Counted from the first letter of the stretch, positions 5,552-26,923 are shown. The stretch is DNA of 64,000 nt from Spirochaetia bacterium (GCA_965226065.1 OZ245332.1:1316774-1380773); one strand, 5' to 3'. The notes: generated from the sequence alone by a model not told the origin. Made by a program: numbers and translations.

Positions 5552-5714
5552 TTTGAAAAAAAATCATTTTAAATACTTATTTAGAAGTACGCGCAAGAAT
5601 CATACGCATAGTAGAAAAACACTTACACTAGCACGGTGAAGATTTATAGCTCTCTTTATCCTTACAAAAAAGTAAGGCGTAAACGAGATATAGCTGCGGT
5701 AAAATTTTCATATA
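5552..5714 (+). repeat. 163-bp leader, copy 1 (upstream of 5716 gene)
   Basis: Direct repeat of 7002-7164 with 4 substitutions by eye; contains a bulged hairpin around ccttac-aaaaaa-gtaagg. Confidence 0.95.
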
Positions 5715-5715
5715 C

Positions 5716-6978
5716 ATGAAAAGAGCAGAAGAATTTAAGCAAATAAAAGAAGAATTTGAAAACATAAAAGCAGAGCTTAATGACAAAATTGAAAAATGTA
5801 ATACTGTCATTGAATTTGCAAATCAAATACAAGATCTTACTACTAAAAAAAATGCAATAGATGAATTTTTTAACAGCATTCATGAAGGTAATAACGGACA
5901 AGAATCTTTAAATATGCAGGTAGATAATGTATATGAAAAAATACAAGAATTCAATGAAAAGATTGAAGAGTCTACTAATAAGCAAGATGAATTAAATCAG
6001 TATTACATAGAAATATTTGGAGCATTAAACGAAGAAACACAAACAAGAGAAGATGGTTTTCAGCAGGAAGTAGAAACATTACAATTGCAGATACAAAAAG
6101 TAGAGAAATTTTTTGAAAATATTGATGATTTAGAACAACGCAAAAATAACACATATAACACAATACAAGAACTCAATGAAAAGATTGAAGAGTCTACTAA
6201 TAAACAAGATGAACTAAATAAGTATTACATAAGAATATTTGGATCATTAAACGAAAGAACACGAACAAGAGAAGGTGGGCTAAAGCAAGAAATAGAGATG
6301 CGCCGAGAGGGACTTGATACATATAAGAAAGAACAAGAAGATGTAATAAAAACATTGAAAAAAAAGATTCACAGATTAATGTCGAGTGCTGTGAGTGTTG
6401 GGCTTGCGAAGTCCTTTGCTGATGAAAAGAAAAAATTTAAGGAAGAAGTAGAAAAACATAGTAAATACTTTACATGGTGTATTGCTAGTTTAGTTTTACT
6501 TGGTGTAGGTAAATTTTTGTATGATGTTTTTTGGAACAAAACTATTGATGTTTTTACAATTAGTAATGTTTTGGTTTCTTTTTTGTCAACATTGCCTTTG
6601 TTTGCACCATTACTATGGTTAGCATATTCTTTTGCAAAAAGACGGAATGCATACGCCATGCTTTATCAAGAATACATGCATAAAGAAGCCTTTGCTAACT
6701 CATATAGTAGTTATAAACAACAAATAGAAGACTTACAAGATAACGATACAACATTACTCAATGAGTTATTAGAAAAAGCAATAAGAATTATTGCGAGAAA
6801 CCCAACGCATGTACTAACAAAAAAACATTCATCAGACTTGCCTATTGAAGAAATAGCGGTACTTATAAAAGCTTGCAAAGGTAATACAGAAGCGATTGCG
6901 AATGTTATAGATAATTTTCTAACACCAAAGCATAATAAGAACGAAGAAGATGAATCAAGTGACAATAATACTTCTTAA
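5716..6978 (+). CDS. Coiled-coil protein with two C-terminal TM helices, unknown function
   Basis: E/K/N/Q-rich helical N-terminus, two hydrophobic segments, then QEYMHKEAFANSYSSYKQQIE; has an internal duplication. Confidence 0.75.
   Translation: MKRAEEFKQIKEEFENIKAELNDKIEKCNTVIEFANQIQDLTTKKNAIDEFFNSIHEGNNGQESLNMQVDNVYEKIQEFNEKIEESTNKQDELNQYYIEIFGALNEETQTREDGFQQEVETLQLQIQKVEKFFENIDDLEQRKNNTYNTIQELNEKIEESTNKQDELNKYYIRIFGSLNERTRTREGGLKQEIEMRREGLDTYKKEQEDVIKTLKKKIHRLMSSAVSVGLAKSFADEKKKFKEEVEKHSKYFTWCIASLVLLGVGKFLYDVFWNKTIDVFTISNVLVSFLSTLPLFAPLLWLAYSFAKRRNAYAMLYQEYMHKEAFANSYSSYKQQIEDLQDNDTTLLNELLEKAIRIIARNPTHVLTKKHSSDLPIEEIAVLIKACKGNTEAIANVIDNFLTPKHNKNEEDESSDNNTS
5940..6279 (+). repeat. In-frame internal duplication (about 118 bp; 5940-6057 and 6162-6279)
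   Basis: IQEFNEKIEESTNKQDELNQYYIEIFGALNEETQTRE versus IQELNEKIEESTNKQDELNKYYIRIFGSLNERTRTRE, offset 222 bp. Confidence 0.9.
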
Positions 6979-7001: not shown

Positions 7002-7164
7002 TTTGAAAAAAAATCATTTTAGATACTTATTTAGAAATACGCGCAAGAATCATACGCATAGTAGAAAAACACTTACACTAGTACGGTGAAGATTTATAGC
7101 TCTCTTTATCCTTACAAAAAAGTAAGGCGTAAATGAGATATAGCTGCGGTAAAATTTTCATATA
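7002..7164 (+). repeat. 163-bp leader, copy 2 (upstream of TPR-DUF2971 gene)
   Basis: Direct repeat of 5552-5714 at offset 1450; ends at the ATG of the 7164 ORF. Confidence 0.95.
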
Positions 7165-10293: not shown

Positions 10294-12252
10294 ATGAATA
10301 TCACAAAAATACAAGACATATTGCATGAGCTTTTGAAGCAAGATGCGAGACTTTGGAATGAAGCTGAGCTTAATTACACGCGTCTTTTTGATTTACTAGA
10401 GAAGAATGACCCTGTGATTATAGCGCTTCTTTTAAAAGATGCTGATGTTAAAGAGAAATTCTTTATACAGGTGGAAAACGTTTTTGTTTTTAAGTCCGAT
10501 GAGTTTCGCTTTTTTGTAGAAGAAAACAAAATAGATAATTCTTACACGAGGTATAAGAATCGCATTGGCTTAACGAGTAGCAAGCGATTTATCAAAGACA
10601 CACACGATGTTGTCTTAGACTTTCCATACAAGGACTGCGTGCTAGAAGGTGGGCAGAGTAGGGACGAAGGCACGGATGCGTACTTTGCGCAAGGCAAAGA
10701 TAGAGCATACGAACAGAAGAAAGCAAAGCGGAAAGAAATATTTTACAACTCGGTATTAGCGCACGATGAGATTGACAGACTTTTTGATGCAAAAGCCTTG
10801 ACGAATTGGAAACGATATCGCAAAGACGGCATGCACGATGCTAGCGATATTGAAAGAGAGCAGGGCACGATACAAGAAAACCTGATACTCAAAGGCAATA
10901 ACCTCATAGCGTTGCACAGCCTTAAGCGACAATTTGCAGGCAAGGTGAAGTTGATATACATAGATCCGCCGTATAATACGGGCAATGACAGTTTCAATTA
11001 CAACGACAAATTTAATCATAGTACGTGGTTAGTGTTTATGAAAAACCGATTAGAAGCAGCGAGGCAGTTGCTACGAGATGATGGGGTGATATTTGTACAG
11101 TGCGATGACAACGAACAAGCGTACTTAAAGATACTGATGGACGAAGTCTTTGGACGGGAAAATTTCTTAAATGATATTATATGGAACTCTACAAAGTCGG
11201 TAACAAATACAGCAATAATATCTGTTGCACATACTCATACATTAGTTTACTTCAAGAGGAAAGATTACTATATAAAGTATAGAAATGAATTTAGATTAAA
11301 AGAAACTGGAGAGGGATTTTCTAATCCAGATAACGATCCTAGGGGAGAATGGAAGGCAGACCCTTTTCAGGTGGGAGGTTGGAGACCTAATCAACAATAC
11401 GATATAATAAATCCAAATACAAAAGTTACTTATAAACCAAATGAAGGTTGTAGCTGGAAAAATGACTTTAATAAGTTTCAAGAACTCTTAAAAGATAATA
11501 GAATTATCTTTGGGACAGATGGAAAGTCAGCTCCTCAAAGAAAAAGATTTTTATCTGAAGCATTAGAAAGAGGTAAAGTTTCTACAACAATTTGGAATGA
11601 CTTAGAAACGACCACTAACGGAACACAACATTTAAAAAGATTATTTAATAAAACTATATTTTCTAATCCCAAACCCGAAGGGCTGTTACAAAGAATTATC
11701 GAGATGGCCACCCAGCCCGGAGATATTGTTCTGGACTACCATTTGGGCAGCGGCACTACCGCAGCGGTAGCACACAAGATGGGTAGGCAATACATCGGCA
11801 TAGAACAAATGGACTACATAGAAGACATAGCGGTAGCGCGTTTGTGCAAAGTCATAGAAGGCGAACAAGGCGGAATAAGCAAGGCGATGCAGTGGAAGGG
11901 TGGAGGTTCTTTCCTCTATTGCGAGCTTGCCCCATGGAACGAGCAGGCAAAAAAGCGAATTGCTGCGTGTGAGTCTTTAGAAGCGCTAGAGACTTTTTTT
12001 AATGAAATGTACGAACGATACTTTCTAAATTACAACGTGAAAATAAAAGAGTTTAAAGACAACGTGCTAGGTGAAAAGCAGTTTAGAGCCTTAAGCCTTG
12101 AGGAACACAAACGCATTTTTTGTGCCATGCTTGATAACAACCAGATGTACGTACCTGTAAGCGAAATGGCAGATGCGAAGTATGACATTAGTGAGACAGA
12201 CCAAGAAATGACGAAAAGGTTTTATGGTGAGGAATTGGTTTTAAATTTATGA
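10294..12252 (+). CDS. mod: Type III R-M methyltransferase (Mod), copy 1
   Basis: ENLILKGNNL, IYIDPPYN, central TRD, DYHLGSGTT, GIEQMDY and GGGSF (beta-class N6-adenine MTase). Confidence 0.93.
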   Translation: MNITKIQDILHELLKQDARLWNEAELNYTRLFDLLEKNDPVIIALLLKDADVKEKFFIQVENVFVFKSDEFRFFVEENKIDNSYTRYKNRIGLTSSKRFIKDTHDVVLDFPYKDCVLEGGQSRDEGTDAYFAQGKDRAYEQKKAKRKEIFYNSVLAHDEIDRLFDAKALTNWKRYRKDGMHDASDIEREQGTIQENLILKGNNLIALHSLKRQFAGKVKLIYIDPPYNTGNDSFNYNDKFNHSTWLVFMKNRLEAARQLLRDDGVIFVQCDDNEQAYLKILMDEVFGRENFLNDIIWNSTKSVTNTAIISVAHTHTLVYFKRKDYYIKYRNEFRLKETGEGFSNPDNDPRGEWKADPFQVGGWRPNQQYDIINPNTKVTYKPNEGCSWKNDFNKFQELLKDNRIIFGTDGKSAPQRKRFLSEALERGKVSTTIWNDLETTTNGTQHLKRLFNKTIFSNPKPEGLLQRIIEMATQPGDIVLDYHLGSGTTAAVAHKMGRQYIGIEQMDYIEDIAVARLCKVIEGEQGGISKAMQWKGGGSFLYCELAPWNEQAKKRIAACESLEALETFFNEMYERYFLNYNVKIKEFKDNVLGEKQFRALSLEEHKRIFCAMLDNNQMYVPVSEMADAKYDISETDQEMTKRFYGEELVLNL

Positions 12253-14201
12253 ATATCAAAAAAATACAAGACATATTGCATGAGCTTTTGAAGCAAGATG
12301 CGAGACTTTGGAATGAAGCTGAGCTTGATTACACGCGTCTTTTTGATTTGCTAGAGAAGAATGACCCTGTGATTATAGCGCTTCTTTTAAAAGATGCTGA
12401 TGTTAAAGAGAAATTCTTTATACAGGTGGAAAACATTTTTGTTTTTAAGCCCGATGAGTTTCGCTTTTTTGTAGAAGAAAACAAAATAGATAATTCTTAC
12501 ACGAGGTATAAGAATCGCATTGGCTTAACGAGTGGCAAGCGATTTATCAAAGACACACACGATGTTGTCTTAGACTTTCCATACAAGGACTGCGTGCTAG
12601 AAGGTGGGCAGAGTAGGGACGAAGGCACGGATGCATACTTTGCGCAAGGCAAAGATAGAGCATACGAACAGAAGACAGCAAAGCGGAAAGAAATATTTTA
12701 CAACTCGGTATTAGCGCACGATGAGATTGACAGACTTTTTGATGCAAAAGCCTTGACGAATTGGAAACGATACCGCAAAGATGGCATGCACGATGCTAGC
12801 GATATTGAAAAAGATGCACAGGGCACGATAAAAGAAAACCTGATACTCAAAGGCAATAACCTCATAGCGTTGCACAGCCTTAAGCGACAATTTGCAGGCA
12901 AGGTGAAGTTGATATACATAGATCCGCCGTATAATACGGGCACAAAAGAGTTTTGTTACAATAATAAATTTCATCACAGTACGTGGTTAGTGTTTATGAA
13001 GAACCGATTAGAAGCAGCGAAGCAATTGCTTAGATTCAATGGCGTAATCTTTGTCAGCATTGATGATAAGGAACACGCGTACCTAAAGGTACTGATGGAT
13101 GAAGTATTCGGACGAGAAAATTTTGTCGGTGACTTAATTAGAAAAACAAAATCTACATCTAACATTATGAAGACAAATTTTAATTTTCAACACGAGAATA
13201 CCTTAATCTATGCAAAAGATATGGAGCATGTATATCTAAGTGGTGGTGAGAAAGATTTTCAGAATTATAGTAATCCCGATAATGATATAAATGGAGAATG
13301 GGTAGGAGCAGATCCAAGTGCAGCACGCATAACAAAGAAAGACCAATATCCTATTAAAAATCCTTATACAGGCAAAGTCGATTATCCACCTTCGGGGACA
13401 AGTTGGAAATTTCCTCAATATAGGTATGAAGAATACGTAAAAAGTGGACGGATAAAGCATAAGAAAATACATAAAGAAAATGAACGTGGCTTTATTTATA
13501 AACGATATAAGAAAGATGTAATAAAGCGAGAGTATGAGCTAAGTTCACTATTATGCACTGATACTGTTTACATGAATCAAGCAGCAACAAAAGAAAATAT
13601 CAAAATATTTGCTGATAAAACATTTGACTTTGCAAAGCCTGAAATATTTCTTAAAGTAGTAATTGAATCTTGTACCCAACCCGGCGATATAGTCTTAGAC
13701 TATCATCTTGGTTCTGGCACTACCGCAGCGGTGGCACACAAGATGGGTAGGCAATACATCGGCATAGAACAAATGGACTACATAGAAGACATAGCGGTAG
13801 CGCGTTTGCGCAAAGTCATAGAAGGCGAACAAGGCGGAATAAGCAAGGCAATGCAGTGGAAGGGTGGAGGTTCTTTCCTCTATTGCGAGCTTGCCCCATG
13901 GAACGAGCAGGCAAAAAAGCGAATTGCTGCGTGTGAGTCTTTAGAAGCGCTAGAGACTTTCTTTAATGAAATGTACGAACGATACTTTCTAAACTACAAC
14001 GTGAAAATAAAAGAGTTTAAAGACAATGTGCTAGGTGAAAAAGAATTTAGAGCCTTAAGCCTTGAGGAACACAAACGCATTTTTTGTGCCATGCTTGATA
14101 ATAACCAAATGTACGTACCTGTAAGCGAAATGGCAGATGCGAAGTATGACATTAGTGAGACGGACCAAGAAATGACGAAAAGGTTTTATGGTAAGGAATA
14201 A
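12249..14201 (+). CDS. mod: Type III R-M methyltransferase (Mod), copy 2 with a different TRD
   Basis: Same motifs as copy 1; near-identical flanks and a strongly diverged central region; ATGA overlap with copy 1. Confidence 0.93.
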   Translation: MNIKKIQDILHELLKQDARLWNEAELDYTRLFDLLEKNDPVIIALLLKDADVKEKFFIQVENIFVFKPDEFRFFVEENKIDNSYTRYKNRIGLTSGKRFIKDTHDVVLDFPYKDCVLEGGQSRDEGTDAYFAQGKDRAYEQKTAKRKEIFYNSVLAHDEIDRLFDAKALTNWKRYRKDGMHDASDIEKDAQGTIKENLILKGNNLIALHSLKRQFAGKVKLIYIDPPYNTGTKEFCYNNKFHHSTWLVFMKNRLEAAKQLLRFNGVIFVSIDDKEHAYLKVLMDEVFGRENFVGDLIRKTKSTSNIMKTNFNFQHENTLIYAKDMEHVYLSGGEKDFQNYSNPDNDINGEWVGADPSAARITKKDQYPIKNPYTGKVDYPPSGTSWKFPQYRYEEYVKSGRIKHKKIHKENERGFIYKRYKKDVIKREYELSSLLCTDTVYMNQAATKENIKIFADKTFDFAKPEIFLKVVIESCTQPGDIVLDYHLGSGTTAAVAHKMGRQYIGIEQMDYIEDIAVARLRKVIEGEQGGISKAMQWKGGGSFLYCELAPWNEQAKKRIAACESLEALETFFNEMYERYFLNYNVKIKEFKDNVLGEKEFRALSLEEHKRIFCAMLDNNQMYVPVSEMADAKYDISETDQEMTKRFYGKE

Positions 14202-15855: not shown

Positions 15856-17214
15856 ATGTCTCAAGATGATTTGAAAGAACAATCTGCTACAGATGCTTCG
15901 CAAGTAGTACGTGATGGTTTTAGTTCTAAATCAGGCTTTATCACTGCTTGTATTGGATCTGCAGTAGGTATGGGGAATATATGGTTATTTTCATATCGTG
16001 TAGGTCAATTTGGTGGGGCTGCATTTCTTATCCCATATTTTTTCTTTGTGATAGTGATTGGACTTTCCGGTGTTATTGGAGAAATGTCCTTTGGTCGTGC
16101 TATGAAAGCAGGGCCACTGGGTGCTTTTACGAAAGCTATTCAAATGCGAGGAAAAAGTGGAGGTAGTATTTTAGGAATGATACCTGTAATAGGTTCGCTG
16201 GGTATTGCCACAGGTTATGCTGTTGTTGTAGGATGGCTTCTAAAATTTACCGTAGGTGCATTTGATGGCGGGGTTTTATCATCTAAAGATAGCGGTGCAT
16301 ATTTCGGTGCCATAGTTGGACCTTTTGGTAGTGTTGGTTGGCATGTAATAATTTTAGTCTTGGTATTTCTTATCATGGTATTGGGAATATCAAAAGGTAT
16401 TGAGATAGCAAATAAAATTATGATGCCTTTGTTTTTTGTGTTATTTATTGGGTTGGCAATATATGTGGTTACATTACCTGGTGCAATAGAAGGGTATAAA
16501 TATTTATTTATACCAAAATGGAACTTATTAGCGGATCTAAAAACATGGATCTATGCTTTGGGGCAGGCATTTTTTTCTTTATCATTAGCGGGTTCGGGAA
16601 CACTTGTATATGGAAGTTATTTAAAAAAATCTGAAGATGTTGTATCGTGTGCAAAGCATGTTGCCTTTTTTGATACCCTTGCTTCGCTCTTGGCGGCAAT
16701 TGTGATTATTCCAGCAGTATTTGCATTTGGCTTAAATCCTGGTGCTGGACCTCCTTTGATGTTTATTACCATGCCAAGTGTGTTTAAGCTAATGTTTGGA
16801 GGGCAGTTAGTTGCAATTATATTTTTCGTAGCGGTACTATTTGCAGGCACTACTTCTCTAATGAATTTACTTGAAACTCCCATTGAAGCATTACAGCAAA
16901 AATTTAAGATTTCAAGAGTTTTATCAGCTACTACCGTTATAGGAATTGCACTTGTAATTGGGGTGATGATTGAGAATGCTGAAATATTGGGAAGGTGGAT
17001 GGATCTTATGTCTCTTTATATTGTACCTCTTGGGGCCTTGCTTGCGGGCATTATGTTTTTTTGGGTTTGTGGATCGAAATTTGTAAAAGAACAAGTACAG
17101 ATGGGGCGAGACAAGCCGCTTGGATCTTGGTTTGTATTATTATCCAAGTATGTATTTTGTGGACTTACCCTTCTGGTGCTTATTTTAAGTATTGTCTTGG
17201 AAGGCGGAATATAA
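15856..17214 (+). CDS. NSS (SNF) family sodium-dependent amino acid transporter, TnaT-like
   Basis: GSAVGMGNIWLF, GQFGGAAFLIPY, ALGQAFFSLS and GPPLMFITMP motifs; lies directly after tnaA. Confidence 0.9.
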   Translation: MSQDDLKEQSATDASQVVRDGFSSKSGFITACIGSAVGMGNIWLFSYRVGQFGGAAFLIPYFFFVIVIGLSGVIGEMSFGRAMKAGPLGAFTKAIQMRGKSGGSILGMIPVIGSLGIATGYAVVVGWLLKFTVGAFDGGVLSSKDSGAYFGAIVGPFGSVGWHVIILVLVFLIMVLGISKGIEIANKIMMPLFFVLFIGLAIYVVTLPGAIEGYKYLFIPKWNLLADLKTWIYALGQAFFSLSLAGSGTLVYGSYLKKSEDVVSCAKHVAFFDTLASLLAAIVIIPAVFAFGLNPGAGPPLMFITMPSVFKLMFGGQLVAIIFFVAVLFAGTTSLMNLLETPIEALQQKFKISRVLSATTVIGIALVIGVMIENAEILGRWMDLMSLYIVPLGALLAGIMFFWVCGSKFVKEQVQMGRDKPLGSWFVLLSKYVFCGLTLLVLILSIVLEGGI

Positions 17215-17492
17215 ACTTTATCTTGCGTAGGAGCATGTTTTTTTAGATTTATAACAGACGCTTGCCGACATAAAAGCCGATCTTGACTACCGCCTTGACA
17301 CAAAAGATAAGCAAAGCGTTTTATACATAAAACCGTACACTTGTAATCCATATATACATAAACACATTATGCTTTTCCACTAAGAAACTCTAGAGAATGT
17401 TTGCATGAATATTTGGTATATAAAGTTAAGATACATAATCGCATGTATTTATCTAAAACACGCTTTCCATACACACGGTACAATAAAAACTA

Positions 17493-17651
17493 ATGAGCCT
17501 CACATGCGAAATACTACAAGCATTACTAGCATGTAATAGCGCCTACCTTACCCAAGATGGTGACTTAAATACGACCAAACTTTACAAGCTAGCACAAGAA
17601 TGCAATCGCAATTTGCTGGAATTGTTATGGGCAGAAAAAATTATTGGATAA
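17493..17651 (+). pseudogene. 5' remnant of a third type III mod gene (52 aa)
   Basis: MSLTCEILQALLACNSAYLTQDGDLNTTKLYKLAQECNRNLLELL aligns with the N-terminus of Mod copies 1/2 (DILHELLKQDARLWNEAELNYTRLFDLLEKNDPVIIALL). Not in the ORF track. Confidence 0.7.
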
Positions 17652-17670
17652 AGAGAGTTTGATTTTTTTT

Positions 17671-18654
17671 ATGAATAAACCTAGTAAAGAAACTAAATTT
17701 AAAACGGTTATTGAGAAAAATACATTCTATTTTTATAACAGGATGTTTGAAGAAAAATATGAAGGATATTTAAATTCTCTAAAAGAAACTTTAGTGATTC
17801 TAAAATATAAAATAGAGACCGATGGATTAAGCAAAGAATTATTTGAAAATCTACTTAGGGAAAAAGAACATGGTTTGAGAGCGTTATTAGCATTAACCGG
17901 TCTTTCTAATGAAACATTAAAAAGGCTAACAACCATAATTCGCATTAAAAATGATAATGAACTAGATAAATTGGTTTATAAAGATAAATGGTATAAAGAT
18001 GAAGATATAGAAAACTTAAAAGAATGGAGCGATTCTAAGATTGATAAGTTAATAAAATCTAATAAATATTTTAGGAAAGGCATTATCAATATATTTTTTG
18101 AAGGTTCAACCGTACCTTTTTTAGCTGAAACCATGCCTTTGTTTGAGTTAAAGAAACTAAGTATTTCTAAATTAATATTTGAAATACCTGAAATGATAGA
18201 TACTCTTATAAGGTATAAAGAAAAAGGCAGTTATTCTAGTAAAAAAGAAAATAACCCAGAAATATTGTTAGAAAGTTTACTTGATAATTTACATATTACT
18301 TTTGAAAAGGGTGATTTAAATGAACTTATAAGTAATTTTCCTGAAAGCAAAAGAACGATGGATTTTATTATCCCCAGTAAACAAAATCCACTTATTATTA
18401 TAGAAAGCTCTTTCTTAGCAACTACTTCTTCTGGGCAAGGTGATAAATCAAAAACGGAAATTTCAATTGATAGTCTTATAAAAGCATACTACCCAAACGC
18501 AAAATTCATTGGCTTTGTCGATGGAGTTGGTTGGTATGTTCGGAAAGAAGATTTACGAAGAATGGTTTCTGCTTATGAAGATGTATTTACATTTCATGCA
18601 GAAGAATTAAAAAGATTTAAGAAATTGCTTATTGAGGTTTTTTCTGGAAAATAA
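17671..18654 (+). CDS. Type II restriction endonuclease, DpnII-family-like PD-(D/E)xK
   Basis: MDFIIP...IIIESSFLATTSSGQGDK and FIGFVDGVGW; adjacent to an MTase. ATG at 17671 (ORF track uses TTG 17644). Confidence 0.7.
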   Translation: MNKPSKETKFKTVIEKNTFYFYNRMFEEKYEGYLNSLKETLVILKYKIETDGLSKELFENLLREKEHGLRALLALTGLSNETLKRLTTIIRIKNDNELDKLVYKDKWYKDEDIENLKEWSDSKIDKLIKSNKYFRKGIINIFFEGSTVPFLAETMPLFELKKLSISKLIFEIPEMIDTLIRYKEKGSYSSKKENNPEILLESLLDNLHITFEKGDLNELISNFPESKRTMDFIIPSKQNPLIIIESSFLATTSSGQGDKSKTEISIDSLIKAYYPNAKFIGFVDGVGWYVRKEDLRRMVSAYEDVFTFHAEELKRFKKLLIEVFSGK

Positions 18655-18659
18655 TTTTT

Positions 18660-19589
18660 ATGTTAGAAAGTTATTTGAACAAAATTATTCAAGGGGACTG
18701 TTTACAATTATTAAAAGGCATTCCAAATAATTCTATAGATATTACATTTGCAGACCCACCTTTTAATTTAAAGAAGAAATATAATGGATATAAAGATAGT
18801 TTAGAATTTATAGAATATATTAATTGGTGTGAAGAATGGATAAAAGAAATGATTAGAATAACCAAACCTACGGGTTCTATCTTTTTACATAATATACCTA
18901 AATGGTTAACTTTTTATGTTGGTATACTGAACAAATACGCTTATTTCAAGCATTGGATCGCATGGAACGCTCCGAGTTCTCCTATGGGCAAAAGTTTACA
19001 ACCAAATCATTATGGCATTTTGTTCTATACCAAAGAAAGTAACAACACAAAGATTTATGAATTGAGAATGCCACATGAAAGGGATAGAAAAACCACATTT
19101 CTAAGAAAAGATTACGGCGGCAAGAAAGGGGGATTGCATCCGTTTGGCCCTTTGCTTTCCGATGTATGGTCGGATATACATAGAATCAAACATACCAAAT
19201 ATAGAAATGCCCATCCTTGCCAACTACCAGTTCATTTATTAGAAAGGATAATATTATTGACAACAGACCAACATGATATAGTTTTAGACCCTTTTATTGG
19301 CACTGGTACAACAGCGGTAGCAGCCAAAAAGTTAAATAGAAAGTTTATTGGTTTTGACTTAGTTCAAGAATATATAAAAGTAGCTCAAGAAAATTTAGCT
19401 GCGGTACAACCAAATTCAAAGATTGATGATGTATGGGTAAGTTTCTATTTAGACGAGGTGAAAACCATAAGAGATAAAGACTGGGATATACTATCAAAAG
19501 ATTTTGAAATACCAAGTAACGTAAAAGAAATTGACTTTAAAAAGATCAAACTTAAAAGTGTTTTCCAAAACTCTAGGAAATGTTTCTAG
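18660..19589 (+). CDS. Beta-class N4/N6 DNA methyltransferase of the type II system
   Basis: IIQGDCL, FADPPFN, HPCQLP and DPFIGTGTT. Confidence 0.9.
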   Translation: MLESYLNKIIQGDCLQLLKGIPNNSIDITFADPPFNLKKKYNGYKDSLEFIEYINWCEEWIKEMIRITKPTGSIFLHNIPKWLTFYVGILNKYAYFKHWIAWNAPSSPMGKSLQPNHYGILFYTKESNNTKIYELRMPHERDRKTTFLRKDYGGKKGGLHPFGPLLSDVWSDIHRIKHTKYRNAHPCQLPVHLLERIILLTTDQHDIVLDPFIGTGTTAVAAKKLNRKFIGFDLVQEYIKVAQENLAAVQPNSKIDDVWVSFYLDEVKTIRDKDWDILSKDFEIPSNVKEIDFKKIKLKSVFQNSRKCF

Positions 19590-19629
19590 AAACTCTTAGT
19601 ATGTCCGACATGAATCTTATCTTTTTGCC

Positions 19630-19740
19630 ATGCTTGATAACAACCAAATGTACGTGCCTGTAATCGAGATTACAGATACGAACTATAATATAAAGAAAGA
19701 AGACCAAGCGATGACGAAAGAGTTTCATGGGGGTAAATAA
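19630..19740 (+). pseudogene. 3' remnant of a third type III mod gene (36 aa)
   Basis: MLDNNQMYVPVIEITDTNYNIKKEDQAMTKEFHGGK* versus the Mod C-terminus MLDNNQMYVPVSEMADAKYDISETDQEMTKRFYGKE*; DNA similarity is obvious. Confidence 0.9.
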
Positions 19741-19862
19741 AGAAAATATATAATATTGATTGACTTTATGGAAAGGCAATCGTGTATCGCCGCAGTAATA
19801 GAAAAACATTTTTGTTACATAGACAGTGACCTATTTACAAAACATTGAAAGAGATCGTATGA

Positions 19863-21161
19863 ATGATAATTATGAGTGAAGAAATACCTTTTATACCATA
19901 TGAAGAAGTTCTAAAAAGGTTAGAGAACACAAACGATGAGAATAATTTATTATTAGGCAATGGTTTTAATACTAGCTTAGGAGTAGGTACGAGCTATGAA
20001 GATATTTTTGAAAAGATGAAAGAAGAGTATATAGGATATAAAAAATTAGAAGAAAAATTCAAAGAGAAAAAACAAGATATTGAAGAATTAATAGGAGTAT
20101 TAACTGAAAGTATTTCTGATAATAAAGAATTTCTTTCTTCATATATAAATAACAAAGTCAAATTAGACTTTATGAAAGCAGCAAATATTATTATACAAAG
20201 CAAAATTAAGAATATATATAATAACAAAAATGAAGGAATATACATTTTGTTTAGTAAATTTATGAATTATTTCACTCTTAACTATGACCCATTTTTATAC
20301 TTATTATTGATGAAGTTTAAATTACCTCTAATTGAAACTATAAAAGAAAATAATTCACAGATGAATACATTAGGATTTATAGAAACTATAAATAGTCAGT
20401 ATGCTTCTTTGACAGAAAATCAACAAAAGTTATGCGAAATTATAAAAAAAGCACGAGATGAGGGTAAAATAACAGTTAGTGTAAATGAAAGAACTGCTGA
20501 CGTTTCACTAAAAAATACTACTAAGACAAAGTTCCTAAGTGCTATGAAAGATTTTCTTAAGAATAATGACTTTCCTTATAAAAACAAAGATATTGATAAA
20601 GTTATCAATCATATTTTGGTAGAAGAACAAAATGAGAAAGAACAAAAACAACTAAGAATAATAGATGGCTTTATATCTAATAAAGAAAAAGAATGTGTAT
20701 ATCGTAGTTTAGAGAGTCAAAATGTGTTCTTTTTACATGGTGCATTTCATATAAAAATAGCAAAAGATAAAACATATAAAATAACACAGACATCAGAAAA
20801 AGCTTTGTATACAAAAATTGAAGAAGCTATTAATAAAGAAGAAAAAATTATTTGTGTTTTTAAAGATAACAACAAACTAGATGAAATTAATAAGAATGAC
20901 TATTTGAAGACAGGATATAACTATTTGAAGACAGGATATGAAAAGCTTTCTACACTTCGAGGTTCTCTTGTGATTATAGGTTGTTCTCTATCTGAAAACG
21001 ATGAACATATTTTTAAGCAAATTGAAGCGAGTGCTATAGATACTATATACATATCAAGCATGGCTGATAAAGAGAAACAGGATCTTATAAGACAAGATTA
21101 TGAGAAGGCAAAAAAATACTTTACAAAAGAAGTAGTTCTTTTTGCTCCAATGAGTATTTAA
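19863..21161 (+). CDS. DUF4917-like SIR2-fold protein
   Basis: LLLGNGF, FTLNYD, FLHGAFH and IIGCSLSENDEHI; contains a 21-bp in-frame duplication at 20900-20939 (YLKTGYN/YLKTGYE). Confidence 0.75.
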   Translation: MIIMSEEIPFIPYEEVLKRLENTNDENNLLLGNGFNTSLGVGTSYEDIFEKMKEEYIGYKKLEEKFKEKKQDIEELIGVLTESISDNKEFLSSYINNKVKLDFMKAANIIIQSKIKNIYNNKNEGIYILFSKFMNYFTLNYDPFLYLLLMKFKLPLIETIKENNSQMNTLGFIETINSQYASLTENQQKLCEIIKKARDEGKITVSVNERTADVSLKNTTKTKFLSAMKDFLKNNDFPYKNKDIDKVINHILVEEQNEKEQKQLRIIDGFISNKEKECVYRSLESQNVFFLHGAFHIKIAKDKTYKITQTSEKALYTKIEEAINKEEKIICVFKDNNKLDEINKNDYLKTGYNYLKTGYEKLSTLRGSLVIIGCSLSENDEHIFKQIEASAIDTIYISSMADKEKQDLIRQDYEKAKKYFTKEVVLFAPMSI

Positions 21162-21193
21162 TATAAGAAAACAAAAGAACCACAAGTTATACG

Positions 21194-23886
21194 ATGAAAG
21201 AATACAGCATACCCATAATCAATGTTGCCGAACAGGCATGGGAATATGGCATTAACAAAGTCGAAATTCCTGCATATATTACAAGCAATTTGAAGCATGA
21301 TTTCTACGAGTGGCAAAGTGAGGCATAGTAAAATTTCTCACACAGCAACGCATCAAAGAAAAAGAGAATTCACATGCACCGCATCTTATGTTTACGATGG
21401 CAACAGGTTCGGGTAAAACGCTCATCATGGCAGCTACCATGTTGTATTATTACAAGCAAGGTTACAGGCACTTTTTGTTTTTTGTAAATCGAAACAATAT
21501 TGTAGCTAAAACTGAAAATAATTTTATTAATGTAGAGCATCCGAAATATCTTTTTACCGAAAAAATTGTCATCAATGATTCAACAATTGCTATGACACAA
21601 GTAGAGACTTTTAGCGATGCTCCACAAGGTATAGAAATAAAATTTACGAGTATTCAAAAACTCTACAATGATATTCACATTGAAAAAGAAAACCTTACAA
21701 CATTAAATGATTTACACAATAAAGACATTATCATGCTCGCCGATGAAGCTCATCACTTAAATACTGATACGAAAGCTGGAGCATCAGAACTGTTTTTAGA
21801 AGAGATACACGAAAGAACAAGCGCAACAGAAGTAGAAAGAAAAGGCTGGGAACACACGGTTATAGATCTTATTTTACATAAGAACAACACAGACAAGCGC
21901 AATAAAAATGTGTTGCTTGAATTTACTGCAACCATCCCTAATACTGAAAGCGTTGCTAAAAAATATCAAGATAAAATAATATACAAGTTTGGATTAAAAG
22001 ATTTCTTAGCTAAGGGATACACAAAAGAAATTAATCTTATTTCTTCTACCCTTGATAAAAAAGAAAGAGTTCTGCAAGCGTTGCTTTTTCAATGGTATCG
22101 ACACAAAATAGCGTTGAAATATAACATTGCCAATTTCAAACCCGTGATACTTTTTAGAAGTAAAACCATTGCTGAGTCGCAAGAGGATTACAAAGACTTC
22201 TTACAATGGATAGATGATCTTTCACGCAATGATTTTAATTTTCTTGACACTATTGCAAATAAAATTTATGAAGCGCAGCAACCAACACTTTTTGAAATGG
22301 GAAAATCGCGTACTAAAAAGGTCTTAGAGTTTGTTAAGAACGAAAACATTCGTATTGTAGACATAATAAATTGGATACAAGACAGCTATCAGGAAAGAAA
22401 CACTATTATTACGAATTCGAAAAACAATAAAACAAAGAAAGAAAAAACAGACGCTACTACAGAAACATTGCTTAATAATTTGGAAGATGTTAATAATCAC
22501 ATACGAGCAATTTTTACCGTAGAGAGACTTACCGAAGGTTGGGATGTATTGAATCTCTTTGATATTGTGCGACTGTACAAGGGGCAAAATGCAGGAGGCG
22601 GTACGAAAAAAACACCAGAGGCGACTATCAAAGAGAAACAACTTATAGGGCGTGGTGTGCGCTATTTTCCCTTTTCGCACGATGAGACAGTAAAGAATAA
22701 AAGAAAGTTTGATAGCAACCTCGACCATGAGTTACGAGTATTAGAAGAACTATATTATTACACCCATGATGAAAATTCACGCTATATTTCTCATTTGAAG
22801 GCAGAGCTAAAAAAAGACGGGTATATAACAGACGATAAAATCGTACAGACCTTTGCGCTTAAAGAGAAATTTAAGAATAGCTTGTATTATGAAACAACGA
22901 AACTATGGTATAACACACAAGTAGATAATCCTAATAGAAAAAAGAAACCATTAGATGAAATATTAAAAAATATGTCCATCACGTACGCATTAACAGGTTT
23001 TGAATTGCATGAAGAAAAAGGGATTGGGGATGACAAAGATAAAGAAACACATATAAATGGAAGTCCATCAAAAACTATACCAGTACCATGCAAAGATATT
23101 GAAAGACATATTTTCTTAAAGGCGGTGCATATCAAAGCAAAGCAAGAAAGATCTTTCTTTCAGTTTGAACAGCTAGAACAAGAATTAGATATTCATAGTA
23201 TTGATGAATTGCAAACGAATATATTAGCGGATAGTGAAATTCACTTTATTGTAGAGAAAGAAATGTCTTATGACAAGGTACCGAATAGAGAAAAATTAGA
23301 GGCAGTAAAACAGCTTTTAGATATGTTTTCTACAGAATGTAAAAAATATAGTATTCCAAAAATTGGTAGTGAATTTAAGGCAGGTAGTTTTTCACAGTTT
23401 TTTTCCACGCCTAAAACAAAAATCATAAACGAAAACCATAGAGATGATGCCATCGCAGAGCATAACTGGTATGTATTAAATAGCTTTGTTGGTACAAGCG
23501 AAGAAAAAGAGCTTGTTAATTTTATTAAAAACAGCGTTGGAAATTTACAAGAAAAGTATCAGGATATATATTTTCTAAAGAACGAAGAAATATATAAAAT
23601 ATACGACTTTGAACAAGGCAGAGGTTTTCAACCCGATTTTCTTTTGTTTTTGAAAGATAAAGAACAATTAGGCTTGTATTATCAAATATTTATTGAACCG
23701 AAAGGAGGGCATTTGTTGGGACATGATGAGTGGAAAGAAAATTTCTTAAAACGAATAGCAGCAGACTATGGAGATGCTCGCATATTACGTGCAGAGCATT
23801 TTTCCTACAAGCTCATAGGATTACCCTTTTTTAGCACTGGCGATAATGCGAATTTTGAACAAGAGTATAAGAAACTTTATTCGTAA
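21194..23886 (+). pseudogene. res: Type III R-M restriction subunit (Res) with a frameshift at about 21325
   Basis: Frame from 21194 gives ...EIPAYITSNLKHDFYEWQSEA*; the other frame continues IVKFL...MATGSGKT, DEAHH, EGWD, QLIGRGVR, PDF...EPKG. One base is missing (gca-ata-gta read as gca-tag-ta). Confidence 0.85.
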
Positions 23887-23947
23887 AGACTATTAAGATA
23901 CCTACTTTTGTGTACAGAAACGCTGTACGCATATGATAGTATAGAGC
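23871..23947 (+). repeat. 77-bp direct repeat, copy 1 (res 3' end plus downstream leader)
   Basis: Matches 26847-26923 at 75 of 77 positions. Confidence 0.95.
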
Positions 23948-23985
23948 CTATCTTCCTTATAATAAGCAGAGAGAGGAATTTTAAT

Positions 23986-25047
23986 ATGGCAAAAAAAATT
24001 GAAGCAATTGATTTATTTTGTGGGATAGGTGGACTTACCTATGGATTACAACAAGCTAATATTAAAGTTTTGGCGGGACTAGACAATGATGCTTCTTGTA
24101 AAGAAGCCTATGAAAAAAATAATCATTGTCAATTCATTGAAGCAGATGTAACAAAATATGATTTTGAAAAGATGAAAAACATATATTCCAATGATAGTAT
24201 TAAAATTTTAGTTGGATGTGCCCCCTGTCAACTTTTCTCATCTCACGCATTTAAAATAAAAAATAAAGAAGATGATACTAGATGGAACTTATTAAACTAT
24301 TTTTTAAAGGCACTTAGAATCGTTGAACCTCACGTTATTTCAATGGAAAATGTTAGAGGTATATTAAAAACTAGAGTTTTTGAAACATTTATCAAAAAAA
24401 TTGAAAATCTTGGATATAAATTTGATTATAAAGTAGTTTATTGTCCTGATTATGGCATACCTCAAAATAGAAGTAGGCTTGTTTTGCTCGGTTCAAAATT
24501 GGGAGAAATACAGATTATAGATAAAAAGTACAAACGAGAAAATTATGTAACTGTAGGTGATGTTATTAGGAATCTACCAAAACTAGAATTGGGAAAAATC
24601 GATAAAAAAGATACTATGCATAGATGTAAGAATTTATCACCATTAAATATAAAGAGAATACAACAATCCTTACCTCGCGGTACATGGAAAGACTGGGATA
24701 GAGATTTATTACCAAATTGTTATAAAAAGAGAAGTGGACAAACCTATACTTCTGTGTATGGAAGAATGAGTTGGGATACTGTTGCTCCAACAATTACTAC
24801 ACAATTTTTTAATTATGGTTCTGGTCGATTTGGTCATCCAGAACAAAATAGAGGGCTTTCACTTCGAGAGGGAGCGTTAATACAAACATTTCCTATAGAT
24901 TATTATTTTGGAGAAATTATTTCAATGACAACAATTGGTAGACATATAGGTAATGCTGTACCACCAAAGTTAGGAGCCGTTATAGGTGAAATTATTCAAA
25001 ACCATATAAAATATCACTATGGAAAAGGAAAAACATACTCAAACTGA
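23986..25047 (+). CDS. C5-cytosine DNA methyltransferase
   Basis: DLFCGIGG, GCAPCQ, MENV, QNRSR, LSLREGALIQTFP and IGNAVPP; ATG at 23986 after gagagga. Confidence 0.95.
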   Translation: MAKKIEAIDLFCGIGGLTYGLQQANIKVLAGLDNDASCKEAYEKNNHCQFIEADVTKYDFEKMKNIYSNDSIKILVGCAPCQLFSSHAFKIKNKEDDTRWNLLNYFLKALRIVEPHVISMENVRGILKTRVFETFIKKIENLGYKFDYKVVYCPDYGIPQNRSRLVLLGSKLGEIQIIDKKYKRENYVTVGDVIRNLPKLELGKIDKKDTMHRCKNLSPLNIKRIQQSLPRGTWKDWDRDLLPNCYKKRSGQTYTSVYGRMSWDTVAPTITTQFFNYGSGRFGHPEQNRGLSLREGALIQTFPIDYYFGEIISMTTIGRHIGNAVPPKLGAVIGEIIQNHIKYHYGKGKTYSN

Positions 25048-26668
25048 CTTCCATTTTAATATCTCACTCAGTGTGTTAAATCATCTAGGAAGAAATCTAT
25101 ATAGAAATTTTATAACTGTTCTTGGAGAAGCTATATCAAATTCATGGGATGCCGATGCAGAAAATGTTTGGATTGATATTGATAGAGACAAGCAGTCTTT
25201 TTCTATTAAAGATGATGGTATAGGAATGTCAAATGATGATTTTCAGAATAAATTTTTAAAGATAGGGTACTCAAAAAGAAAAGATGGTACTCAATCAACT
25301 AAAGAAGGCCGTCCTTTTATCGGACGAAAAGGTATAGGGAAATTAGCTCTTCTATCTTGTTCACAAAAAATAAGTATTGTTTCAAAACAAGAAGATGCTT
25401 ATACAGGTGGTGTTATTGACAATACAGAGTTAGATAAAGCAATTGAAGATGACTTAGAGTCACGCGAATATTCGCTTGGAAAAATAGACCAAGAAACATA
25501 CCAAAAACAAATACATAGCAGCAGTGGAACTATTATTTCTTTTGAAAATTTAAATGATGGAATAAGAAATACTTTAGAGACTTTGGAAAAAACTATTGCA
25601 TTGTATTTTAGATTCTCTTTATTAGATGAGAATTTTAAAATTCATTTTAATGGAAAAGAAATTACTGTAGACAACTTAGAAGACCTTACATCAAAAACAG
25701 AATTTTTATGGATACTCAATAAGCACAAAGACCCTCTTATGGATAAATTTTCTCAAAAAAAAGAAGTAAAAAAAATGAATCCAACTACTTCTATAAAAGG
25801 GTTTATTGCATCAGTAGAAAAACCTAGCGATTTAACAATATACGGTATGAAAGAACGTGTTAGCATTGATTTATTTGTCAATGGTAGATTAAGAGAACGA
25901 GATATATTAAAACATGTTCCTAAATCTCGCATTGTAGAAAATTATCTTTATGGGCAAATTCATTTTGATGAATTAGAAAATCAGGATAAAGATATTTTTG
26001 CCACCAATCGCGAAGGTATTCTTGCTGATGATCCAAAATACCAAGAATTTTTAGAACAATTTAAGAAAGAGTTTCTAAATCCTATTATAGATCAATGGGA
26101 TAGATTTAGATTGAAACACCGCCAAGATGGAGATCCAGAGAATAAGAGTATGTCGAAAGAAGAAAGGAAGGCTGACGAACTACTTAATATAGAATCTAAA
26201 GAATATAAAGGTGAATTTGTTAATCATAACATAGAAGAATTGCGTAATGATGGTAGATATAATATTGCATCTTATACACAATGCTTTTTAGCTGAAAATT
26301 TATTAAGAAAATTTATAGAAAAACATAATTTGTTAGAAAATATTCCTAAGAAGATACAAGAAAATATTAAAAAATATAAAAGGATTGAAGATGAAAACAA
26401 ACAAAAAGGTAACATAAGTATCCCAATACGTGTTGATAATAATATGTCCTATTTATCAATGGATGAATTAGCATATATTATAGATCAAAAAAATGATATG
26501 GCAAAATCTTCCCTCAATTGGGATGCTAAAAAGTATAAACCTATACGAGATGCTATTGCTCATACTGCATGGTTAACTAAAGAGGCAAAAGACGAATTCA
26601 AAACTATTTATGACAATATCAAAGGTAGAGTAGACAAATTATCGGAAGAGAACAACAACAAGAAATAA
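25019..26668 (+). CDS. GHKL/MORC-like ATPase with a putative C-terminal Swt1-like HEPN domain
   Basis: EAISNSWDA, DDGIGM and GRKGIGKLA (GHKL); C-terminal ENLLRKFI...YLSMDEL..II...RDAIAH (R-x4-H). Confidence 0.8.
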   Translation: MEKEKHTQTDFHFNISLSVLNHLGRNLYRNFITVLGEAISNSWDADAENVWIDIDRDKQSFSIKDDGIGMSNDDFQNKFLKIGYSKRKDGTQSTKEGRPFIGRKGIGKLALLSCSQKISIVSKQEDAYTGGVIDNTELDKAIEDDLESREYSLGKIDQETYQKQIHSSSGTIISFENLNDGIRNTLETLEKTIALYFRFSLLDENFKIHFNGKEITVDNLEDLTSKTEFLWILNKHKDPLMDKFSQKKEVKKMNPTTSIKGFIASVEKPSDLTIYGMKERVSIDLFVNGRLRERDILKHVPKSRIVENYLYGQIHFDELENQDKDIFATNREGILADDPKYQEFLEQFKKEFLNPIIDQWDRFRLKHRQDGDPENKSMSKEERKADELLNIESKEYKGEFVNHNIEELRNDGRYNIASYTQCFLAENLLRKFIEKHNLLENIPKKIQENIKKYKRIEDENKQKGNISIPIRVDNNMSYLSMDELAYIIDQKNDMAKSSLNWDAKKYKPIRDAIAHTAWLTKEAKDEFKTIYDNIKGRVDKLSEENNNKK

Positions 26669-26670
26669 AC

Positions 26671-26862
26671 ATGTCACAGCATAATAAAATACATCTCTAC
26701 CTACAATCAATGTGCGCGGAAAAGGCATTTGAATATGGCACGGCATTAGCAAAACTGAAAATAATTTTCTTAACGCAGAGCATCCGAAATATTTTTTTAC
26801 CGAAAAAATTGTCATCAATGATGCAACGCTTGCCATCACACCAGTAGAAACTTTATTCGTAA
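26671..26862 (+). pseudogene. Collapsed remnant of a second res gene
   Basis: Three fused pieces: AEKAFEYG (res AEQAWEYG), AKTENNFLNAEHPKYFFTEKIVINDATLAITPVET (res AKTENNFINVEHPKYLFTEKIVINDSTIAMTQVET), and the last codons of res. Confidence 0.9.
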
Positions 26863-26923
26863 AGACTATTAAAACACCTACTTTTGTGTACAGAAACGCT
26901 GTACGCATATGATAGTATAGAGC
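26847..26923 (+). repeat. 77-bp direct repeat, copy 2 (leader of the sugar-binding lipoprotein gene)
   Basis: Matches 23871-23947 at offset 2976. Confidence 0.95.

What the first reader, a model, noticed from the sequence alone, without database searches (positions are those of the whole stretch)
17493..19740. A complete type II R-M system nested inside a hollowed-out type III mod gene
Seen: an unannotated 52-aa ORF (17493-17651) homologous to the Mod N-terminus, then a DpnII-like endonuclease and its MTase, then a 36-aa piece (19630-19740) clearly homologous to the Mod C-terminus. The catalytic motifs and TRD of this third mod are exactly what is missing. Inference: the conserved mod ends acted as recombination arms or a landing pad, so one R-M type replaced the core of another while keeping its promoter and position upstream of res. 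This extends TRD-swapping to whole defence systems. A 16/18 direct repeat (aaactctagagaatgttt 17385-17402; aaactctaggaaatgttt 19568-19585) also brackets most of the unit.
Basis: partly seen in the sequence, partly recalled or inferred. Interest (0 to 1): 0.8.

Follow-up and report, generated by a model that had tools for sequence, protein, structure and literature searches.

The report
Restriction genes wedged between methylase-gene fragments
A cut-down type II restriction-modification cassette really does sit between a leftover start and a leftover end of type III methylase genes, but it is one variable allele of a recombination-scrambled defence locus, not a clean swap of one system into another.

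Summary
Both mod remnants are real. The 52-aa ORF is 57% identical to the N-terminus of a genuine Mod on a metagenome contig and scores E 1.5e-4 against a Mod N-terminus profile. The 3' piece starts at 19619, not at the ATG at 19630, and is 81% nt identical to the mod1/mod2 3' ends.

The type II system is not complete. In 53 of 80 related loci the cassette is M1-REase-M2. Here M1 is reduced to its last 8-14 codons and joined out of frame to mod codon ~47.

The same junction occurs in another organism (L008). There the REase is deleted and the outer part of the mod fragment matches that genome's own mod.

Two sister strains lack the cassette. L090 has only mod 3' remnants. X6 has only the first 16 mod codons next to DUF4917.

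Res is intact: the window lacks one T that four read sets and L090 carry. A DUF4917/PDC-S21 gene separates the remnant from res.

The breakpoints are not the TRD-swap boundaries. Recombination inside mod 5' ends is supported. Origin of both remnants from one gene is unresolved.

The 16/18 repeat is at chance level region-wide, but it is part of a duplicated mod-upstream segment. This is a new variant of known R-M-linked substitution, of moderate interest.

The parts
17271..17492 (+). Strain-variable left flank. It includes repeat copy 1 (17373-17402, TTTTCCA..AAACTCTAGAGAATGTTT) and the mod-proximal leader 17472-17492.
   Evidence: The window and sister strain L090 are 98.7% identical up to about 17270-17290 and then diverge. 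17472-17540 is shared with the X6 strain with 2 differences in 69 nt.
17493..17651 (+). 5' remnant of a type III mod gene. Mod codons 1 to ~47 reach about 17630. The ORF then runs out of frame into the M1 tail and stops.
   Evidence: Mod N-terminus profile E 1.5e-4. 57% identical to the L008 Mod N-terminus. Hits to P0001, P0002 and P0004.
17629..17670 (+). Remnant of the last 8-14 codons of the cassette's first methyltransferase M1 (..DKESLIFF), read in the REase frame.
   Evidence: Related cassettes end M1 with ..GLQNTMKEESILFFTNQK immediately before the REase start. There is no other M1 homology in the window.
17671..18654 (+). Type II restriction endonuclease, 327 aa, full length.
   Evidence: 58-80% identical over aa 3-324 to REases next to M2 homologues in about 70 loci. 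Pfam DpnII 28.1 bits, partial; PADLOC REase_II.
18660..19589 (+). Beta-class N6/N4 DNA methyltransferase M2. The conserved protein ends at KIKLKSV (19563). The last 8 codons read through into flanking DNA.
   Evidence: PF01555 3.4e-51. 61-76% identical in 80 loci. C-terminus comparison. Versus L008, dN 0.059 and dS 0.37.
19561..19618 (+). Spacer containing repeat copy 2 (19568-19585). It is a second copy of a mod-upstream segment.
   Evidence: In the X6 strain, a stretch matching 19555-19615 lies directly upstream of 17472-17540. Smith-Waterman test p about 0.002. Window/L008 homology ends at 19563, plus the shared letters TTCCA.
19619..19740 (+). 3' remnant of a type III mod gene (Mod codons ~607-648 plus the stop).
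   Evidence: 81% nt and 59% aa identical to the mod1/mod2 ends. At least 96% identical in L090, where the remnant extends further upstream. It matches the C-termini of the Mods next to Res homologues in L001-L007.
19863..21161 (+). DUF4917 / PADLOC PDC-S21 candidate defence gene, between the mod remnant and res.
   Evidence: PF16263 6.4e-19. PDC-S21 1.5e-36. It is also adjacent to res in L090, and a remnant lies upstream of res in L004.
21194..23886 (+). Type III res. It appears broken in the window (stop at 21326, frameshift) but is intact at 897 aa once the T present in the reads is inserted after 21325.
   Evidence: The T insertion is seen at full depth in X1, X2, X3 and X6. L090 calls an 897-aa Res. 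PADLOC REase_III 1.4e-97.
10294..14201 (+). mod1 and mod2. These are two intact tandem type III mod genes with near-identical ends and different TRDs, and they are possible partners for the lone res.
   Evidence: Pfam PF12564 plus PF01555. Self-comparison.

Best explanation
This stretch is one allele of a strain-variable type III restriction locus that has been scrambled by recombination. The locus lies downstream of the transporter gene.

The cassette. A three-gene type II R-M cassette (M1, REase, M2) lost M1 when an illegitimate, out-of-frame join fused mod codon ~47 to the last 8-14 codons of M1.

The block. The product is a block made of a mod 5' end, the REase and M2. That join happened once. 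The block is now found in two organisms, and its outer mod part has been exchanged by homologous recombination with resident mod 5' ends.

Its position here. In this strain the block sits next to a resident mod 3' remnant. The right-hand join is illegitimate and runs through a second copy of a mod-upstream segment. Downstream lie a DUF4917/PDC-S21 gene and an intact res.

How it likely works (inferred). REase and M2 most likely still act as an ordinary type II system. M2 methylates and protects the host DNA, and the REase cuts unmethylated DNA. They would be transcribed from the former mod promoter, with the 52-codon remnant ORF ending 20 nt before the REase start and serving as a leader. Res would need Mod1 or Mod2, encoded 3-7 kb upstream of the stretch, in order to work.
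For: Shown:
- Both remnants are homologous to Mod.
- The canonical cassette is M1-R-M2 in 53 of 80 loci. Nearly all loci without M1 are contigs cut off at that end. None of the 80 carries mod remnants.
- An M1 tail is present just before the REase start.
- L008 has the same left junction and an M2 that is 89% nt identical, with the REase deleted and no 3' remnant.
- Identity between the L008 fragment (P0001) and the window rises from 41-47% at the 5' end to 70-80% at the junction. P0001 is 85-98% identical to L008's own mod at its 5' end.
- M2 dS of 0.37 predicts about 71% neutral identity. That fits the junction-proximal part and not the distal part.
- L090, which is 98-99% identical in the flanks, has transporter, mod 3' remnants, DUF4917, res, and no 5' remnant, REase or M2.
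- The X6 strain has the first 16 remnant codons, then 64 nt, then DUF4917.
- Res is intact in the reads and in L090.
- M2 dN/dS is 0.16, and the REase is full length.
- No terminator-like site lies in 17100-21400.
Against: - The order of events cannot be fixed from three alleles.
- A deletion-only history from one ancestral mod fits L090 and the window's two remnants. It does not explain the second mod-upstream copy.
- X6 contig adjacency is inferred from depth and from shared sequence with L090, not from a spanning contig.
- No promoter-like site was found upstream of the remnant, and no RNA data exist.
- With M1 gone, REase activity is unproven, and the L008 lineage has deleted its REase.
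- L008 has 2x coverage and contains frameshifts.
Confidence: 0.5

Rival explanations
1. In-situ hollowing of one gene. A single resident mod, directly upstream of DUF4917-res, received the cassette. It then lost codons 48-606 and M1 by deletion, so both remnants are the two ends of the same gene.
For: The X6 strain has the remnant's leader and first 16 codons immediately upstream of DUF4917, without the cassette. L090 could have arisen by recombination between two 95%-identical mod 3' ends. It follows the X6 mod-end variant up to 19721 and the window after that. The L008 Mod combines an N-terminus like the 5' remnant with a mod1-like core, 91% nt identical in its last 77 nt.
Against: L090 and X6 share a decayed mod 3' remnant, with the same 96-nt deletion, that has no 5' end upstream of it. 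A second copy of the mod-upstream segment lies between M2 and the 3' remnant. The same mod-5'/M1-tail junction occurs in another organism without any 3' remnant. L009 pairs an N-terminus like the 5' remnant with a C-terminus only 28-30% identical to the 3' remnant.
Confidence: 0.3
2. A discrete mobile unit bounded by the direct repeats (17385-17402 and 19568-19585), which inserted by site-specific recombination, transposition or insertion with target duplication.
For: The repeat extends to TTTTCCA(+5 nt)AAACTCTAGRRAATGTTT, with p about 0.002 in a restricted test. It brackets exactly the block of remnant, REase and M2. Single-crossover integration through a shared mod-upstream segment would create such a duplication.
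Against: Region-wide, a 16/18 pair is expected in 44% of random sequences. There is no integrase or transposase in the unit. The empty-site allele L090 does not contain the repeat sequence. The window/L090 breakpoints (about 17270-17290 and 19619) do not coincide with the repeats.
Confidence: 0.1
3. The 52-aa ORF is a chance ORF, or the arrangement is an assembly chimera.
For: Pairwise similarity to the window's own Mods is not significant (E 0.35). Word-index searches found nothing.
Against: Profile and cross-genome matches are significant. Independent short-read contigs span the whole region without mismatch.
Confidence: 0.02

Closest known systems
R-M-linked allelic substitution and insertion at R-M loci (Furuta, Abe and Kobayashi 2010, PMC2853133)
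   Same: One R-M type occupies the place of another between conserved flanks. Small ORF remnants of the displaced system are left behind. R-M units are flanked by repeats. The polymorphism is at strain level.
   Different: Here the incoming type II unit is itself truncated and is physically coupled to a mod 5' fragment that recurs in another organism. The res of the displaced type III system stays intact. No empty site with a single repeat copy was found.
TRD (target-recognition-domain) exchange between type III mod alleles (Haemophilus and Neisseria modA; PMC1557822)
   Same: Conserved 5' and 3' mod sequence with a replaceable middle. mod1 and mod2 in this window show exactly that pattern.
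   Different: The breakpoints here are at codons ~47 and ~607, not at the TRD boundaries (~292 and ~472). The junctions are out of frame and cut through a cassette gene. No functional Mod results.
Multi-methylase type II cassettes such as DpnII, MboI and LlaDCHI (two MTases plus one REase). This comparison is recalled from general knowledge, not tested.
   Same: The canonical relatives carry two MTases of different classes flanking one REase. The REase has a partial Pfam DpnII match.
   Different: The gene order is M1-R-M2. The recognition sequence is unknown. This copy has lost M1.
Defence genes embedded inside R-M operons (for example prrC within type Ic hsd loci; recalled from general knowledge)
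   Same: Unrelated defence genes (DUF4917/PDC-S21, type II R-M) sit between the modification and restriction genes of another system.
   Different: The host modification gene here is destroyed. No functional coupling is shown.

Membership tests
Type III Mod (the flanking fragments) | N-terminal region homologous to Mod N-termini | tested here: met
   Profile E 1.5e-4. 57% identical to the L008 Mod N-terminus.
Type III Mod (the flanking fragments) | PF12564 domain, PF01555 catalytic core (DPPY, FxGxG) and a TRD | tested here: not met
   No Pfam hit in either fragment. Codons ~48-606 are absent. These are pseudogene remnants only.
Type III Mod (the flanking fragments) | C-terminal region homologous to Mod C-termini, located upstream of res | tested here: met
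   However, DUF4917 intervenes before res.
M1-REase-M2 type II R-M cassette family | Full-length REase homologue | tested here: met
   aa 3-324 of 327 align at 58-80% identity.
M1-REase-M2 type II R-M cassette family | Downstream beta-class MTase M2 with DPPF and FIGTGTT motifs | tested here: met
   PF01555 3.4e-51. dN/dS 0.16 versus L008.
M1-REase-M2 type II R-M cassette family | Upstream gamma-type MTase M1 (SPPY motif, ~409 aa) | tested here: not met
   Only the last 8-14 codons remain.
M1-REase-M2 type II R-M cassette family | Restriction and methylation activity, and the recognition site | not testable with these tools
   GATC observed/expected is 0.57, but several other 4-mers are equally depleted.
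DpnII-family endonuclease | Full-length match to PF04556 | tested here: inconclusive
   28.1 bits, above the 23-bit cut-off, but only profile positions 181-269 of 278 are matched. No PDB relative was found.
Type III Res | Intact ORF with the ResIII helicase domain and C-terminal nuclease region | tested here: met
   897 aa after the T seen in all read sets is inserted. PADLOC 1.4e-97.
R-M insertion with long target duplication (PMC2853133) | Direct repeats longer than 30 bp that align to a single copy in an empty-site genome | tested here: not met
   The repeat is 25-30 nt and gapped. The empty-site allele L090 lacks it.

The most novel reading that the evidence does not exclude
The mod 5' end (leader plus the first ~47 codons) acts as a portable adaptor. 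It would supply expression signals and a homologous recombination arm, so that unrelated cargo can be moved into and between type III loci. In L008 the same mod 5' end precedes three different things: the R-M remnant, a TPR gene and a real mod. In this species it occupies different positions in two strains.
Probability: 0.2. Interest if true: 0.7.

Novelty: new variant of a known kind. Interest (0 to 1): 0.42.

Why it matters
The locus shows how defence loci turn over. A type III system can lose its methylase to an incoming type II cassette while keeping an intact res beside two other mod alleles. A gene fragment can also travel with its cargo and be re-fitted to each host by recombination. 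If the mod 5' end really serves as a recombination and expression adaptor, that would be a simple, enzyme-free route for exchanging defence cargo at R-M loci. As it stands, this is a well-documented example of R-M-linked substitution and decay, not a new mechanism.

Tried and rejected
- Word-index protein searches with either remnant found nothing.
- Exact-protein look-ups for M2, the transporter, mod2, AsnRS and the binding protein found nothing. One search used wrong coordinates.
- Pfam and NCBIfam do not recognise the fragments.
- tblastn of the N remnant against plasmids found nothing. The L008 Mod N-terminus gave only relatives below 43% identity, so it could not test whether N- and C-terminus types travel together.
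- The third homology search returned only truncated Mods with no C-termini.
- The promoter and terminator scan was uninformative.
- No RNA runs were found.
- The REase has no relative among solved structures.
- I considered whether the spacer after M2 derives from an L009-type Mod C-terminus. I dropped this at p = 0.06.
- I considered whether the 52-aa ORF is the start of M1. I rejected this because M1 N-termini differ and Mod matches are far stronger.
- The mod-core dN/dS was out of register and is not used.

Full report
LAYOUT

On the + strand the window carries, in order:
- a TPR/DUF2971 gene (7164-10058);
- two intact tandem type III mod genes, mod1 (10294-12252) and mod2 (12249-14201);
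- a beta-eliminating lyase gene and an SNF-type transporter gene (to 17214);
- the finding itself;
- a DUF4917 gene (19863-21161), which is PADLOC candidate system PDC-S21;
- a type III res (21194-23886);
- a second type II pair, dcm plus a HATPase-type REase (23908-26668).

GC content is 0.23-0.34 from about 17250 to 26750 and 0.36-0.43 upstream.

Contigs built from the reads of three runs of the same sample span 16941/16952-23929. They show no mismatch apart from one extra T, so the arrangement is not an assembly chimera.

THE 3' REMNANT

tblastn of Mod1 and Mod2 against the region gives 24/41 identical residues, E 2e-11. At DNA level, 19622-19730 is 80-81% identical to the last 110 nt of mod1 and mod2. 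Local alignment shows the homology starting abruptly at 19619-19622. The ATG at 19630 is therefore incidental. The fragment also matches the C-termini of the Mods that sit directly upstream of Res homologues in seven genomes from distant phyla.

THE 5' REMNANT

Pairwise similarity to this window's Mods is not significant (E 0.35), and the curated libraries are silent. Other tests are positive:
- A profile built from eight Mod N-termini places the ORF third among all 1032 six-frame segments of the window. It scores 17.9 bits (E 1.5e-4), behind only mod1 and mod2, with noise starting at 7 bits.
- An exhaustive phmmer search of 1.8 billion representatives found three hits. Two are short proteins, P0001 and P0002.
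- P0001 lies on contig L008. That contig also carries a bona fide Mod whose N-terminus is 57% identical (26/46) to the ORF and continues collinearly into the Mod1 alignment.
- P0004, a Mod fragment with the PF12564 domain, matches as well.

THE TYPE II SYSTEM IS TRUNCATED

A metagenome scan with the MTase gave 80 loci at 61-76% identity, and nearly all have the REase homologue directly upstream. In 53 of them a 409-aa MTase, M1, precedes the REase. M1 has an SPPY motif and hits UPF0020 and N6_N4_Mtase in Pfam. Nearly all the loci without M1 are contigs that end there.

M1 ends ..MKEESILFFTNQK just before the REase start. In the REase frame the window reads ..(G)QKKLLDKESLIFF-MNKPSKE. Only the last 8-14 M1 codons therefore remain. 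They are joined out of frame to Mod codon ~47, around 17626-17646.

None of the 80 loci has a mod remnant. The remnants are thus not part of the cassette family.

The conserved M2 protein ends at KIKLKSV (19563). The last eight codons here are read-through into flanking DNA.

The REase is full length. M2 is under purifying selection, with dN/dS 0.16 versus L008. Whether the REase is active without M1 is unknown.

THE SAME LEFT JUNCTION IN ANOTHER ORGANISM

L008 carries, in order: P0001, the M1 tail, the first ~17 REase codons, a 900-bp deletion (window 17722-18621), and an M2 that is 89% nt identical. Homology to the window stops at 19563 plus the letters TTCCA.

Identity between P0001 and the window's fragment rises along its length: 47% in the leader, 41% in codons 1-17, 62%, 70%, and 80% across the junction. 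Identity between P0001 and L008's own mod runs the other way: 85%, 98%, 87% and 62%.

M2 dS of 0.37 predicts about 71% identity at neutral sites. That fits the junction-proximal part only. The junction was therefore made once, and the distal mod part has since been exchanged by homologous recombination or gene conversion.

L008 holds the mod leader and first codons three times: before the R-M remnant, before a TPR gene and before the real mod.

SISTER STRAINS

L090 is a 1.8-Mb contig that is 98-99% identical to the window in the flanks. Its order is:
- the transporter;
- about 70 nt;
- an L009-type Mod C-terminal remnant (71% identical over 38 aa);
- a mod1-like fragment (codons ~538-568, then a 96-nt deletion, then 597-650), whose end is the window's 3' remnant;
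- the same 122-nt spacer;
- DUF4917, an 897-aa Res, dcm and the REase.

L090 has no 5' remnant, no REase and no M2. The breakpoints against the window are about 17270-17290 and 19619-19623.

In run X6 the main strain shows three features:
- A 15-kb contig joins a stretch like 19555-19615 to 17472-17540, then 64 unknown letters, then 19857 onward. This gives the mod leader and the first 16 remnant codons right before DUF4917, with no cassette and no 3' remnant there.
- The transporter-side contig continues as in L090.
- A 455-nt contig carries the same 96-nt-deleted mod fragment, cut at 19719.

The three alleles are best read as different products of recombination and deletion among several mod copies. 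They do not settle whether the window's two remnants belonged to one gene.

For one gene:
- The X6 leader sits next to DUF4917.
- L090 can be read as a crossover between two 95%-alike mod 3' ends.

For separate origins:
- L090 and X6 share a decayed 3' remnant with no 5' end upstream of it.
- A second mod-upstream copy lies between M2 and the 3' remnant.
- L008 has the block without any 3' remnant.
- L009 pairs an N-terminus like the 5' remnant with a C-terminus only 28-30% identical to the 3' remnant.

THE DIRECT REPEAT

The 16/18 pair exists. However, 44% of random sequences with the same first-order composition contain one. When only the segment upstream of the remnant is compared with the segment after M2, a longer gapped match reaches p about 0.002. 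This choice of segments was made after seeing the data. The X6 strain shows that the second copy is mod-upstream sequence.

The repeats do not coincide with the window/L090 breakpoints, and L090 lacks the repeat sequence. They are therefore not a target duplication of a simple insertion.

RES AND CONTEXT

The window has a stop and frameshift after 21325. X1, X2, X3 and X6 all insert a T there at full depth, and L090 aa. Res is therefore intact. Its only candidate partners in the window are Mod1 and Mod2, which is an inference.

DUF4917 separates the mod remnant from res here, in L090 and in X6. A DUF4917-like remnant also precedes res in the Spirochaetia genome L004.

No promoter-like or terminator-like site was found around the unit, and no RNA data exist.

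COMPARISON WITH WHAT IS KNOWN

Furuta et al. (PMC2853133) describe three things: allelic substitution between R-M types at one locus, short ORF remnants left by such events, and R-M insertion with long target duplication. This case belongs with those.

It differs in two ways. The incoming unit is coupled to a mod 5' fragment that recurs elsewhere, and res survives.

It is not TRD-swapping. mod1 and mod2 switch from 94-95% identity to unrelated sequence at aa ~292 and ~472, whereas the breakpoints here are at codons ~47 and ~607 and are out of frame.

VERDICT

The mechanism is recombination plus illegitimate joins in a decaying, polymorphic locus. Interest is moderate.

Noticed in passing
window 21320-21330: The res gene looks broken (stop at 21326 plus a frameshift). 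All read-based contigs (X1, X2, X3, X6) insert a T after 21325, and L090 encodes an 897-aa Res. This is probably a consensus error in the window sequence.
   Followed up: yes
window 23870-23947 and 26747-26923: After the second type II pair (dcm plus HATPase-type REase) lies a hollowed res remnant. It is an 89% copy of res 21503-21611 fused to a 97% copy of the res 3' end plus 61 nt downstream. A 78-bp direct repeat therefore flanks that R-M pair, as in 'insertion with long target duplication'. The same structure is present in L090.
   Followed up: partly
window 10294-14201: mod1 and mod2 are tandem with overlapping stop and start codons. They are 94-95% identical over the first 872 nt and the last 526 nt and have unrelated central regions. 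This is a two-allele mod array with a single res 7 kb away.
   Followed up: partly
window 19863-21161; L004 9526-9744: A DUF4917/PDC-S21 gene sits between the mod remnant and res. A distant Spirochaetia genome has a DUF4917-like remnant just upstream of its res. Between its mod and res it also has a DUF488 gene, a second Mod C-terminal remnant (7341-7412) and an N6 MTase.
   Followed up: partly
L009 1503-4289: This marine contig carries a Mod whose N-terminus (like the window's 5' remnant) is joined to codon ~193 with a frameshift. It is followed by a 117-aa ORF, a second Mod C-terminal remnant (3513-3656) and a TIR-domain gene.
   Followed up: partly
L008 7560-7640 and 8950-9060: Runs of GCCCGCCCTAAATACGG-type short repeats flank the P0001-M2 block on both sides. 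The TPR gene downstream is split by frameshifts on this 2x-coverage contig.
   Followed up: no
window 5552-5714 and 7002-7164: A 163-nt upstream region is duplicated at 97.5% identity in front of two neighbouring genes (5716-6978 and the TPR gene at 7164-10058).
   Followed up: no
window, whole: GATC is depleted (observed/expected 0.57). So are GGCC (0.44), TCGA, CCGG, ACGT and CTAG. This fits a lineage with many restriction systems but does not identify this REase's site.
   Followed up: partly
window 26930 and 13131: An X1 contig at depth 93 joins 26930 to 13131 (the start of the mod2 TRD) with 22 unmatched letters in between. The cause is unexplained.
   Followed up: no
window 55402-56301: Another N6_N4 DNA methyltransferase (299 aa) lies far from the locus. 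It is the only other sequence in the window with weak similarity to M1 motifs.
   Followed up: no
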